Below, piece after piece: positions 5,153 to 7,768 of a stretch of 53,841 bases of DNA. Made by a program: the position numbers. Every line of letters starts with the position of its first letter. Position 1 is the stretch's first letter. This stretch comes from Girardia tigrina (taxonomy: Eukaryota): contig MQRK01236146.1 of the NCBI GenBank assembly GCA_001938485.1, forward strand, positions 1-53,841. The letters run 5' to 3'.

Positions 5153-7768
5153 TAATAATAATTGTAAAGCTCACTCTTTGTTCTCTAATAGATGCAGAAC
5201 AAAGGGGGAGTTTTAACAAATAAATTTCTTTATTTAGACTTTTCTTAATAATAAGAATACCGAATCCAATTTGTAAAGATATATTACCAGATATTAGTCT
5301 TGCTGGAGGTAACTCAAATCGATATCTTAAAATTGTTTAGAGTAAAAAAAATAATTTAACTCTGAATAAATAAATGACCAAGCTGACCAATTAAAATTAC
5401 TTCAAATACGACTCTTAATTATGTAATTTTAAATAGTTCAAAATCTTTGTATAAAATAGTCGAAAAATATGAAAGAGTTTTCAATTAATATTAGAACCAA
5501 ACTATGTATGGCACTATGCAGTTTGATTAACTTGATCAGTGTAGTGATGATACAACTTATTAATGGGAATGATAGAACTATAATCAAATAACAATTCTAC
5601 AAGATAACCAAACAAATTTTAATTAATAAAAACCGTACAAATGGTATTGGATCTTACACGGTGAATTTACAAAATGTAATCGGAAGGTTGGATGAACGAA
5701 GTCTCGAGATTAATTTTTGAATAATGTTTGTCGAAACCGGTGATAAATAGTCGGTCGGAAATTCAGTAATAATGATGATATTCGATACTTTAGTACCGAT
5801 AATAATAGTCAGCGATTTAGTAAACGAAAATGATACTCAAATACGTTGAGGATATTCAGTAATTCAGGAAATGATAAATGATCAGGAATTTTCATTATTA
5901 CTGCTTATCATATAAATTAATTATCTGACCAACAATAATGATAATCCATTTATGATATTACTGGTCAATATAATTTTAAATTCAAATTTTAATTTAAATT
6001 CGAAATCATACAATTAACTTATGTAAAAATAATTTCCTTCTTAATAATAATCTTCCTCTTTTTCTTTTTCTTACATAAAAATAAATTCTTTCTCTTTTTT
6101 CTTTTCATTTCCTTCATCTTTCCAAAAATAGTCTTTCATTCTTTCATTAAATATTCGTCTTTTGGAATAAATTAAAGTTTTTCTTTTATACCCACAGACA
6201 TACAAAGAATATAAAAAAATAAAACGCAAAAATTATTCACCACACACAAAGAAAACAATAAATTAACACATGCAAAGGACAGCCTTAAAAATTGTGACAC
6301 AAGCCAAATAAAAAATCTAACGAAACGAATACATAAAAAAAACGAATTGATGTCACCAGATTATTACCATATTATGAGGTTATAACAATAATCCCCCTGA
6401 TGATAAATGGAGAGTTATTGATTGTCATGTGTGGTTATGTTTACGAGTTTGATAATGGTGTTGGTTGAAACATTTTTATATTTACAGTGAATGTTCATTA
6501 CAATAATAATAATAATAATATTAATAATTGATAGCAGAGTTGGTTGCGCAGCGGTTGCGTTTTGGTGTTAGGTGATGGATTCCGGGTCGAGGGAAGAAAA
6601 TAATTACTAACATTTTTGATCCTCGGCCCATTGTTCCTTTATCCGGATCTAACCATAGTAATTCACAAAATAAATTTTGATCTGAAACATCTGTTCGTCT
6701 CATAATGCGCCTTATTTGCTCCATTGATTGAAAATCAGGTGAAAGACCACCGTGGCAGCAGAATATCGTTTCGTCAATTATAGCAGCCATTGGTAAGCAA
6801 CTGAAACTGTCCGTAAATGTTTTCCATAATTTAATATTGTATCGTCTCTTACATTCGTCTTAAAATCTATAGATCCGATTGATTGAGGTGTACTCGTGAT
6901 TTCCGAGAAATAAGTTCATAAGATTTTTAGACACGGATTCATTAGACGGTTCGAGTATTAAAACGTGTTCATAAGTTAAAATTGCTTCATCAAATCGTCT
7001 CAGGAATTCTAAAGCGGCAGCTTTTCGAGAATATCCTTTGGCCCAACCAGATTTCAATTTAATACACTCTTCTGTATCAGAAAGAGCGAAATCAATCAAG
7101 AAGAGCAAATAACATTTTATAGCTTCATGAATTTGTCCTGACTGTAAAGCCTTGTTGCCTTTCAATATGTCAGCATTTCGATAATTGTAGATCACCAAAA
7201 TATGACGAATCTCAATTCAAAATAATAACATTCCGTGTTAATAAACTTTTACTTAATTCAAAAGAAAAAAATGGCGACTTTCGATTATATACAAAATGTT
7301 TTAAAAGATAAATTCGCGCCAAAATACATAAATTAATTCGAATAAACAAATGTACAATTTTGTTATAATTTGATCGATTTACAGTCATTATAAAAATTTC
7401 AATTCGAACCTTTGTTTTTCTTCTTTTCGGCCAATCAGAAACGGCCACGCAATTCACTTAAGAAAGACAAACACACACAGGCACAACACATTCAACAATA
7501 ATCCCGAAAACACACAAACACACAAAAAGCTGCACTTTCACAAGAAAAAAACACGATCAATCACAAAGCCGAATATATGTCACAAATCAGAACTGATGGG
7601 ATTCATCAAGTGATTCTTTGATAGGGCTCGATCGATTAGTATCTTCAGATTTCACCAACAATCGTTCATCATCAACATTTTCTTCGATCACTTCTTCAAT
7701 TATATTTTCATCATCCATCGACACTCTCGCGATCAACTTCCATTACCTCGATCTCAAAATCATACTCG

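What the first reader, a model, noticed from the sequence alone, without database searches (positions are those of the whole stretch)
6521..7198. In-frame STI1/HOP-TPR::PP1 chimera that re-creates PP5-like architecture
Seen: the HOP TPR1 fragment runs in one frame into PP1 at ...VSKNLMN-LFLGNHE..., with a single TAA at 6860 and no intron. Known: TPR plus PPP phosphatase is the PP5 layout, but the catalytic part here is PP1 ([21 protein letters not shown]) and the TPR is HOP (KGYSRKAAALEFL), so two unrelated genes were joined. The N-terminal metal-binding GDxHG/GDxVDRG motifs are absent, so this copy cannot be an active phosphatase. Inference: the product of template switching or DNA-level shuffling; an intact or multicopy version may exist elsewhere.
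Basis: partly seen in the sequence, partly recalled or inferred. Interest (0 to 1): 0.72.

Follow-up and report, generated by a model that had tools for sequence, protein, structure and literature searches.

The report
Dead HOP–PP1 chimeric pseudogene fragment
A short piece of a co-chaperone gene (HOP) and a middle piece of a phosphatase gene (PP1) lie joined in one reading frame, but the join is a decayed, non-functional pseudogene of a known general kind.

Summary
On the minus strand, window 7162-6911 matches HOP/STIP1 TPR1 (residues 10-115). It runs directly, in the same frame, into 6916-6620, which matches PP1 catalytic subunit residues 117-217.

It is not a working PP5-like enzyme.
- The PP1 piece covers about a third of the catalytic domain and lacks both ends.
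- It carries one in-frame stop and a two-codon gap.
- It differs at 12 of 72 columns that are invariant in 31 named PP1s.
- The HOP piece lacks 22 residues inside TPR1 and everything after residue about 116.

No other piece of either gene lies in the 53.8 kb window, except one insignificant PP1-like lead. No repeat of the chimera was found. No poly(A) tail was seen by eye. The one candidate target-site duplication is not above chance. No terminal repeats were found.

Best reading: two reverse-transcribed mRNA fragments were joined and inserted, probably at a repaired DNA break, and then drifted neutrally. LINE template switching and DNA-level capture remain open, because the parental loci could not be examined. 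The finding is ordinary: a new member of a known kind, of low interest.

The parts
6911..7162 (-). HOP/STIP1 TPR1-like fragment. It matches HOP residues about 10-115, with a 22-residue internal gap; no in-frame ATG lies upstream.
   Evidence: tblastn with P0001. PDB hits 7kw7_E and 1elw_A. Pfam TPR_1 E 3.5e-8, the only TPR motif above cut-off apart from TPR_2 on the same stretch. HOP HMM positions 11-28 and 57-116 of 567. The 22-residue gap is needed in most full-span alignments to HOP-like proteins.
6596..6916 (-). PP1 catalytic-subunit fragment, treated as one broken part. It matches residues about 117-217 clearly and weakly to about 225. It has one in-frame stop and one two-codon gap, and lacks both ends of the catalytic domain.
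   Evidence: tblastn with P0036 and P0008. PDB PP1 gamma/alpha E about 2e-42. Pfam Metallophos positions 75-143 of 191. PP1 HMM positions 119-136 and 138-218 of 323. It differs at 12 of 72 invariant columns.
6911..6916 (-). Junction: two codons that the alignments assign to both parents, so a few bases of shared sequence are possible.
   Evidence: The HOP alignment ends at 6911 and the PP1 alignment starts at 6916.
6521..6595 (-). Open tail of the frame after the PP1 similarity ends. It is more G+C-rich than its surroundings, has no recognisable similarity, and ends at an (ATT)n microsatellite.
   Evidence: Translation. No Pfam or PP1/HOP HMM match. Sequence read directly.
7163..7216 (-). Open stretch upstream of the HOP similarity, up to the next stop, with no detectable similarity. 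It may or may not be the diverged first codons of HOP.
   Evidence: Translation. The HOP HMM alignment starts at HMM position 11.

Best explanation
This is a dead, decaying two-piece pseudogene. About 250 nt copied from the start of the coding region of a HOP/STIP1 transcript (TPR1) is joined head to tail to about 300-320 nt from the middle of a PP1 catalytic-subunit transcript.

The most likely origin is that short reverse-transcribed pieces of two abundant mRNAs were joined to each other and used as a patch at a repaired chromosome break. This would be the 'class 2 templated insertion', or RT-product-mediated break repair. The patch then drifted without selection.

Shown: the two identities, the direct in-frame join, the truncation of both pieces at both ends (only the 5' end of the HOP piece is not fixed), the decay, and the absence of retroposition and transposon hallmarks.

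Inferred: the RNA origin, the break-repair route and the neutral drift.

It does nothing as a protein. The shared frame of the two pieces is most simply chance: same orientation 1 in 2, same frame 1 in 3.
For: - Identity and join.
- Both pieces are contiguous coding sequence with no inserted intron-like stretch, over 84 and about 101 codons.
- The PP1 piece is truncated at both ends: PP1 HMM positions 119-218 of 323. The HOP piece covers HMM positions 11-28 and 57-116 of 567, so its 3' truncation is clear but its 5' end is not fixed.
- No poly(A) run follows the PP1 piece (read directly).
- The best flanking direct repeat (12 nt) is matched or beaten in 43 of 98 control region pairs from the same window and in 73 of 500 shuffles.
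- No terminal inverted or long direct repeats bracket it within 3000-11000 or window-wide.
- Decay: one stop; 12 of 72 invariant and 15 of 88 at-least-95%-conserved PP1 columns changed, against a median of 0 and maximum of 10 in 31 real PP1s.
- Piece sizes and anatomy match published break-repair insertions. Those span 73-414 bp, have no TSD and no poly(A), and show microhomology (PMC5110952, abstract and sections 4 and 9).
- Partial internal spliced mRNA pieces without poly(A), and several pieces joined in series with 1-5 nt microhomology, are also described (PMC4516963, abstract and sections 6 and 8).
- Retroelement remains lie in the same window: a gag/protease fragment and an RVT_3 hit. 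This shows only that such elements have been present in this genome.
Against: - The parental HOP and PP1 genes of this organism were not available, so absence of introns relative to the parents is not shown. If the parents have no introns in these stretches, a DNA origin fits equally well.
- The insertion boundaries are unknown, so microhomology at the outer junctions cannot be read.
- At the inner junction only a possible shared codon pair is seen, at protein level.
- Three features all preserve the frame: the in-frame join, the in-frame 22-codon gap and the in-frame two-codon gap. That is a little more order than pure chance predicts.
- Ascertainment is biased, because only coding-like patches can be recognised.
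Confidence: 0.4

Rival explanations
1. A LINE-type chimeric retrocopy. A reverse transcriptase copying PP1 mRNA from its 3' end switched template to HOP mRNA and ran on towards its 5' end. The 3' two-fifths of the PP1 part, the poly(A) tail and the target-site duplication were later lost by deletion and decay.
For: Two features listed for such chimeras are present: a direct join in the same transcriptional orientation, and a 5'-truncated 3' part (PMC2104539, Background passages). The HOP similarity starts near the protein's N-terminus (HMM position 11), as expected if copying ran towards the 5' end of the second template.
Against: The PP1 part stops at about residue 219-225 of about 325, and no PP1 similarity follows in any frame. 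No A-rich tail abuts it. The flanking direct repeat is not above chance. In the published chimeras the 5' part is a full-length RNA copy; here it covers HMM positions 11-116 of 567. This reading therefore needs an extra deletion event.
Confidence: 0.2
2. DNA-level origin. Genomic pieces of the two genes were brought together without an RNA step. Routes include capture by a DNA transposon (Pack-TIR or Helitron type), filler DNA at a break, ectopic recombination, or deletion inside a segmental duplicate.
For: Retroposition hallmarks are absent. DNA transposon remains are common in the window: MULE at 29067-29492; Tc1/mariner at 43055-43558 with 135-nt inverted repeats; Mos1 HTH at 1529-1807. Capture of host sequence by TIR transposons is reported in animals (PMC8277862, search listing and start of abstract only). 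A weak PP1-like piece lies 2.7 kb upstream on the same strand, at 9784-9640 with HMM positions 51-86. If real, it would suggest a PP1 copy with an intron-sized gap.
Against: No terminal inverted repeats or other repeats bracket the chimera. Both recognisable pieces are purely coding and abut codon to codon. The upstream PP1-like piece is not significant window-wide (E 0.35-0.44), and an unbiased PDB search with it at E up to 10 returned no phosphatase. No other HOP or PP1 exon lies in the window.
Confidence: 0.25
3. It is, or recently was, an expressed chimeric gene or exon set encoding a TPR-phosphatase fusion, with an intact copy possibly elsewhere in the genome.
For: The join, the 22-codon gap and the 2-codon gap all keep the frame. 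Only one stop occurs in about 185 homologous codons.
Against: The stop sits inside uninterrupted PP1 homology, so no intron can remove it without deleting conserved residues. TAA is a genuine stop here. The GDxHG and GDxVDRG region and the C-terminal third of PP1 are absent. 12 of 72 invariant PP1 columns are changed. There is no in-frame ATG; the listed ORF starts at TTG. None of the 150 listed representative proteins (of 7732 hits) has its best stretch crossing the junction or exceeds 48% identity.
Confidence: 0.04
4. Assembly artefact: reads from two loci, or from contaminating cDNA, were wrongly joined.
For: The window has five N runs and a perfect 108-nt inverted repeat nearby, at 4334-4441 and 5392-5499. 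The assembly is therefore not flawless.
Against: Both halves are equally pseudogene-like, not copies of intact genes. The PP1 half is only 77-81% identical to real PP1s and carries a stop. The join is clean and lies about 1.4 kb from the nearest N run.
Confidence: 0.05

Closest known systems
Class 2 templated sequence insertions, or RT-product-mediated double-strand-break repair (PMC5110952; PMC4516963)
   Same: Short internal pieces of cellular transcripts (here about 250 and about 300-320 nt; published 73-414 bp, and 310 and 797 nt). No poly(A), no target-site duplication. Several pieces can be joined in series with a few bases of overlap.
   Different: Here the event is old and decayed. The outer boundaries and the parental introns are unknown, so the RNA step and the microhomologies are inferred, not shown. 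The published cases are in mammals; this host is an unnamed AT-rich eukaryote.
LINE-mediated template-switch chimeric retrogenes (features as listed in PMC2104539)
   Same: Two unrelated transcripts are fused directly in the same orientation, and the 3' partner is 5'-truncated.
   Different: The 3' partner does not run to its 3' end. There is no A-rich tail and no direct repeat above chance. The 5' partner is a fragment, not a full-length RNA copy. Both partners are protein-coding mRNAs rather than a small RNA plus a LINE.
PP5 (TPR domain plus PPP catalytic domain)
   Same: The domain order is the same: TPR first, PPP-type sequence second.
   Different: The TPR is HOP-type and the catalytic part is PP1-type. 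Both are fragments, the frame is broken, and the metal-binding motifs at both ends of the catalytic core are missing.
Gene-fragment capture by DNA transposons (Pack-MULE/Pack-TIR, Helitron, CACTA; PMC8277862 and PMC1947982, listings and abstract starts only)
   Same: Pieces of unrelated host genes are juxtaposed and can form chimeric reading frames.
   Different: No terminal repeats or element ends were found around this chimera. There is no second copy in the window. The pieces carry no intron or flanking non-coding parent sequence that could be recognised.

Membership tests
PP5 (TPR-PPP phosphatase) | N-terminal three-repeat TPR domain of PP5 type | tested here: not met
   The best matches are HOP (E 2.1e-25 and 5.4e-15); PP5 chains score E about 2e-4 to 4e-3. 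Only one repeat passes Pfam's cut-off. There is a 22-residue internal gap.
PP5 (TPR-PPP phosphatase) | Complete PP5-type catalytic domain in an open frame | tested here: not met
   The catalytic piece is PP1-type (E about 2e-42), and no PP5 chain is among the 60 listed. It covers Metallophos profile positions 75-143 of 191 and has one in-frame stop.
PP1 catalytic subunit | Close sequence similarity to PP1 | tested here: met
   79 of 101 residues are identical to Tribolium PP1 over residues 117-217. Identity to 31 named PP1s is 77-81%.
PP1 catalytic subunit | Full catalytic core with all metal- and phosphate-binding motifs | tested here: not met
   Only HMM positions 119-218 of 323 are present. 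The region before position 119 and the region after 218 are absent from the locus. That these regions hold the GDxHG and GDxVDRG motifs and the later His motif is recalled knowledge.
PP1 catalytic subunit | Conservation at family-invariant positions | tested here: not met
   The fragment differs at 12 of 72 invariant and 15 of 88 at-least-95%-conserved columns. Real PP1s have a median of 0 and a maximum of 10. The wider 46-sequence set gave 12 of 55 and 22 of 93.
HOP/STIP1 | TPR1 domain similarity | tested here: met
   PDB hits 1elw_A 'TPR1-domain of HOP' and 7kw7_E. 48 of 106 residues identical to frog HOP residues 10-115.
HOP/STIP1 | Full architecture (TPR1, DP1, TPR2A, TPR2B, DP2) | tested here: not met
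   The HOP HMM (567 positions) matches only at 11-28 and 57-116, in one of 3410 six-frame pieces of the window. The domain names are recalled knowledge.
LINE template-switch chimeric retrogene | Parts directly joined in the same transcriptional orientation | tested here: met
   The feature list comes from PMC2104539.
LINE template-switch chimeric retrogene | 3' part runs to the RNA's 3' end with an A-rich tail | tested here: not met
   PP1 similarity ends at about position 218-225 in all frames. No A run follows.
LINE template-switch chimeric retrogene | Flanking short direct repeats (target-site duplication) | tested here: inconclusive
   The best candidate is 12 nt, at 6384 and 7494. A repeat at least as long occurs in 43 of 98 control region pairs and 73 of 500 shuffles. 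The true boundaries are unknown.
Class 2 templated insertion / RT-product-mediated break repair | No TSD, no poly(A); short partial copies of transcripts | tested here: met
   The criteria come from PMC5110952 section 9 and PMC4516963 section 6.
Class 2 templated insertion / RT-product-mediated break repair | Pieces lack the parents' introns (proof of an RNA step) | not testable with these tools
   No eukaryotic genome collection was open. The parental HOP and PP1 loci are not in the window.
Class 2 templated insertion / RT-product-mediated break repair | Microhomology or untemplated bases at junctions | tested here: inconclusive
   The two alignments overlap by two codons at the inner junction. 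Nucleotide-level parents are lacking.
Transposon-captured gene fragments (Pack-TIR / Helitron) | Element termini (TIRs or Helitron ends) bracketing the captured pieces | tested here: not met
   Only short, AT-rich, low-identity inverted pairs occur around it. The one strong pair (4334-4441 / 5392-5499) does not enclose it. No window-wide repeat touches 5500-8900. Helitron ends were not modelled.

The most novel reading that the evidence does not exclude
The frame-preserving join and the frame-preserving gaps are not chance. On this reading, the locus is a recently dead copy of a lineage-specific, once-expressed TPR-PP1 fusion gene, or of a mobile gene-fragment cassette. Intact or multiple copies would then exist elsewhere in this poorly sampled genome.
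Probability: 0.06. Interest if true: 0.6.

Novelty: new member of a known kind. Interest (0 to 1): 0.2.

Why it matters
If the RNA-patch reading is right, the locus is a natural fossil of two mRNA fragments captured in series in an invertebrate-like, AT-rich genome. That process is documented mainly in mammalian cells and embryos. It is a small data point on how exon-sized pieces of unrelated genes come to lie in frame, which is raw material for domain shuffling. As it stands it has no functional consequence. The phosphatase part cannot be active, and nothing suggests selection.

Tried and rejected
1. Search for further exons of either parent. tblastn with HOP and two PP1s and HMMs over all 3410 six-frame pieces found nothing. 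The one exception is a PP1-like piece at 9784-9640 (minus strand) with E 0.35-0.44 window-wide. A PDB search with that piece at E up to 10 gave one unrelated hit, and my eye-reading of a continuation in another frame got no HMM support. It is kept as a lead only.
2. tRNA and Rfam scans of the window found 0 matches. My idea that the G+C-richer tail at 6521-6620 is tRNA- or SINE-derived has no support.
3. Target-site duplication: a 12-nt repeat was found but is at chance level.
4. Self-comparison for repeats around the chimera found none.
5. Pfam was run on every stop-to-stop piece of at least 38 aa in 4500-11000 (2 of 64 hit, both being the chimera). It was also run on pieces of at least 48 aa elsewhere, and on 62 shorter minus-strand pieces in 24.5-28.6 and 34-40.7 kb (0 hits). 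No other host-gene fragment lies next to the chimera.
6. The coiled-coil-like open piece at 7830-8082 (minus strand) gave 0 PDB hits at E up to 1. The Atlas gave only generic coiled-coil look-alikes at low recognition.
7. Protein searches for a chimeric relative or the parent HOP:
   - The 'longer' search with the junction ORF gave 4 hits, best 45% identity.
   - The representative search gave 7732 hits. In the 150 listed, identity is at most 48% and no best stretch passes query residue 106 of 112.
   - Only best stretches are shown, so this is weak negative evidence.
8. The three top 'PP1' hits with high scores (P0005, P0007, P0008) turned out to be gene models with internally duplicated PP1 segments, not chimeras.
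9. Naming the organism failed. The kinase ORF's close relatives (79-81% identity) come only from unnamed sources, and I did not pursue them.

Not used or not checked:
- Genome contigs was not used, because it holds only bacteria and archaea.
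Full report
**What is there**

The window is AT-rich: G+C is 0.20-0.35 in 2-kb steps. It holds five N runs, which I left as they are.

On the minus strand one reading frame runs from 7216 down to 6524, with a single stop inside it. The frame has two parts with recognisable similarity.
- The upstream part (7162-6911) aligns to residues 10-115 of a frog HOP, P0001, with 48 of 106 identical and a 22-residue gap.
- The downstream part (6916-6620) aligns to residues 117-217 of Tribolium PP1, P0036, with 79 of 101 identical, a 2-residue gap and the stop.

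I searched the two open pieces on either side of the stop separately. No joined read-through was handed to any search tool.

**Which genes the two parts come from**

- The first piece (window 6863-7198) is closest to Stress-induced-phosphoprotein 1 (7kw7_E, E 2.1e-25) and to the 'TPR1-domain of HOP' (1elw_A, E 5.4e-15). RPAP3 follows at 3e-13. PP5 chains score about 2e-4 to 4e-3.
- The second piece (window 6524-6859) is closest to PP1 gamma and alpha (E about 2e-42). PP2A scores 1e-19 and calcineurin 1e-15. No PP5 chain is among the 60 listed of 89 matches.
- Pfam sees one TPR repeat above its cut-off in the first piece. In the second piece it sees Metallophos profile positions 75-143 of 191.

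This is a HOP-type TPR fragment fused in frame to a PP1-type fragment, not a PP5.

**How broken it is**

The PP1 part:
- An HMM built from 31 named PP1s matches it only at positions 119-136 and 138-218 of 323. The earlier 46-sequence HMM gave the same result. Both the N-terminal third and the C-terminal third of the catalytic core are absent from the locus.
- It has one in-frame stop and one two-codon gap.
- It differs from the family at 12 of 72 invariant columns and 15 of 88 columns conserved in at least 95% of sequences. The 31 real PP1s depart at a median of 0 and a maximum of 10 of those 88 columns. With the wider 46-sequence set the counts were 12 of 55 and 22 of 93.
- TAA is a genuine stop in this organism. 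The intact 488-aa kinase ORF in the same window ends in TAA, and its relatives are 487-488 aa long at 100% coverage.

The HOP part:
- Most full-span alignments to HOP-like proteins need the same 22-residue gap; a few need 20-27.
- A 567-position HOP HMM matches only positions 11-28 and 57-116.
- There is no in-frame ATG upstream. The mechanical ORF starts at TTG.

This is a pseudogene. Its resemblance to PP5 is limited to the order 'TPR, then PPP'.

**Surroundings**

- Neither tblastn nor the two HMMs run over all 3410 six-frame pieces of the window found any other HOP fragment.
- The only other PP1-like signal is a 36-residue stretch at 9784-9640 on the same strand, at HMM positions 51-86.
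  - It has E 0.077 within 1-12 kb but E 0.35-0.44 window-wide.
  - A PDB search with it at E up to 10 returned no phosphatase.
  - I keep it only as a lead.
- Pfam on all 64 stop-to-stop pieces of at least 38 aa between 4500 and 11000 hit only the two chimera pieces.
- The chimera and its flanks are not repeated anywhere in the window.
- No tRNA or Rfam family matches anywhere in the window.

**Hallmarks of mechanism**

- On the minus strand, nothing A-rich abuts the end of the PP1 similarity. About 75 nt of G+C-richer sequence without similarity follows, then an (ATT)n microsatellite.
- The longest direct repeat with one copy on each side is 12 nt. A repeat at least that long occurs in 73 of 500 shuffles and in 43 of 98 equally spaced control region pairs from the same window. 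It is no evidence for a target-site duplication.
- No terminal inverted repeats enclose the locus. The one strong inverted pair nearby (4334-4441 / 5392-5499, 108 nt, 100%) lies entirely to one side.

**Interpretation**

The anatomy is two short, purely coding pieces of unrelated, typically abundant transcripts. Each is cut at both ends where that can be judged; the 5' end of the HOP piece is not fixed. They are joined codon to codon, with the two alignments overlapping by two codons. There is no poly(A) and no target duplication.

This best matches what has been described as class 2 templated sequence insertions:
- They have no TSD and no poly(A) and show NHEJ-type junctions. Experimental inserts span 73-414 bp (PMC5110952; I read the abstract and sections 4 and 9).
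- It also matches RT-product-mediated break repair. That work describes partial internal spliced mRNA pieces without poly(A) tails, and several pieces in series joined through 1-5 nt of microhomology (PMC4516963; abstract and sections 6 and 8).

The classical LINE template-switch chimeras share the direct same-orientation join and the 5'-truncated 3' partner. However, they are described as having a full-length 5' partner and flanking direct repeats, and LINE insertions as carrying A-rich 3' ends (PMC2104539, passages from the abstract and Background). None of these three features is met here, so an additional deletion would be needed.

A DNA-level origin cannot be excluded, because the parental loci and their introns are out of reach. 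That is the main gap in the argument.

My confidences are:
- About 0.4 for break-repair capture of cDNA pieces.
- 0.2 for LINE template switching followed by loss.
- 0.25 for DNA-level capture or rearrangement.
- About 0.05 each for misassembly and for a once-functional fusion gene.

**In-frame join**

Same orientation (1 in 2) and same frame (1 in 3) are unremarkable by themselves. The 22-codon and 2-codon gaps also keep the frame. That is why I leave about 6% for the bolder reading that the fusion was once expressed or has intact copies elsewhere.

Against that reading:
- The junction-spanning ORF found no chimeric relative. The 'longer' word-indexed search gave 4 hits, best 45% identity.
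- Among the 150 listed of 7732 hits in the representative library, none exceeds 48% identity, and none has a best stretch beyond query residue 106 of 112.
- Only best stretches are shown, so this negative is weak.

**What stayed unchecked**

Copy number, read support, expression and the parental loci were not checked. I made no scan for further chimeras. The kinase's near relatives (79-81% identity) come only from unnamed sources, and I did not look into them. Supplementary files were not consulted. The figures of junction sequences in PMC4516963 are largely supplementary, so my comparison rests on its main text.

**The virus-like stretch (described only)**

On the minus strand between 26346 and 28251 lie a zinc-knuckle gag-like piece and an aspartyl-protease piece of an LTR-retroelement type.
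- The 561-codon frame carrying them holds 10 in-frame stops.
- Pfam finds no reverse transcriptase, RNase H or integrase next to them.
- No long terminal repeat pair is present in the window.

It is a decayed fragment, about 19 kb from the chimera. I found no link between the two beyond showing that retroelements have been present in this genome.

**Verdict**

This is an ordinary decayed chimeric pseudogene: a new member of a known kind, of low interest.

Noticed in passing
window 4334-4441 and 5392-5499: A perfect 108-nt inverted repeat with 950 nt between the arms. It could be a foldback or MITE-like element, or an assembly duplication.
   Followed up: no
window 26346-28251 (-): A decayed LTR-retroelement-like fragment with a gag zinc knuckle and an aspartyl protease. 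There are 10 in-frame stops in the 561-codon frame. No RT, RNase H or integrase was found by Pfam, and there is no LTR pair in the window.
   Followed up: partly
window 9640-9784 (-): A G+C-richer patch with weak likeness to PP1 positions 51-86, on the same strand as the chimera and 2.7 kb upstream of it. E is 0.077 locally and 0.35-0.44 window-wide, with no PDB support.
   Followed up: partly
window 43055-43558 (-), with 42265-42399 and 43636-43770: A Tc1/mariner-type HTH fragment lying between 135-nt inverted repeats that are 94.8% alike. This is probably a roughly 1.5-kb transposon remnant.
   Followed up: no
window 29067-29492 (+): A MULE transposase domain fragment, E 2.6e-10.
   Followed up: no
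window 1529-1807 (+): A Mos1-type HTH_48 fragment of a mariner transposase, E 5e-6.
   Followed up: no
window 45453-46919 (-): An intact 488-aa protein kinase ORF in a single exon. Its only close relatives (79-81% identity, 487-488 aa) come from unnamed sources, and the next hits fall to about 50% identity or less.
   Followed up: partly
window 13537-13815 (+): The C-terminal part of a G-protein alpha subunit, Pfam G-alpha positions 280-333 of 333. It scores 43 bits, below the 48.8-bit cut-off, as expected for a lone last exon. A single N sits just after it.
   Followed up: no
window 8935-9212; 31878-32161; 33181-33473 (inverted); short pieces at 15407-15456 and 28461-28557: A dispersed repeat family of about 280 nt, 71-94% alike. 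Two copies are in inverted orientation about 1 kb apart.
   Followed up: no
window 38358-38708 (-): A weak RVT_3 (RNase H-like) Pfam match, E 7.9e-5, inside a G+C-richer block at 36-40 kb. No other retroelement domain was found there.
   Followed up: partly
window 23599-24090 (-): A 163-aa ORF with a weak match to the Eco29kI restriction endonuclease model, E 7.5e-4, below cut-off. From memory this suggests a Penelope-type endonuclease; that was not tested.
   Followed up: no
window 7590-8082 (-): Coiled-coil-like open frames just upstream of the chimera, interrupted by a (TA)21 microsatellite. No Pfam or PDB match, and only generic Atlas look-alikes.
   Followed up: partly
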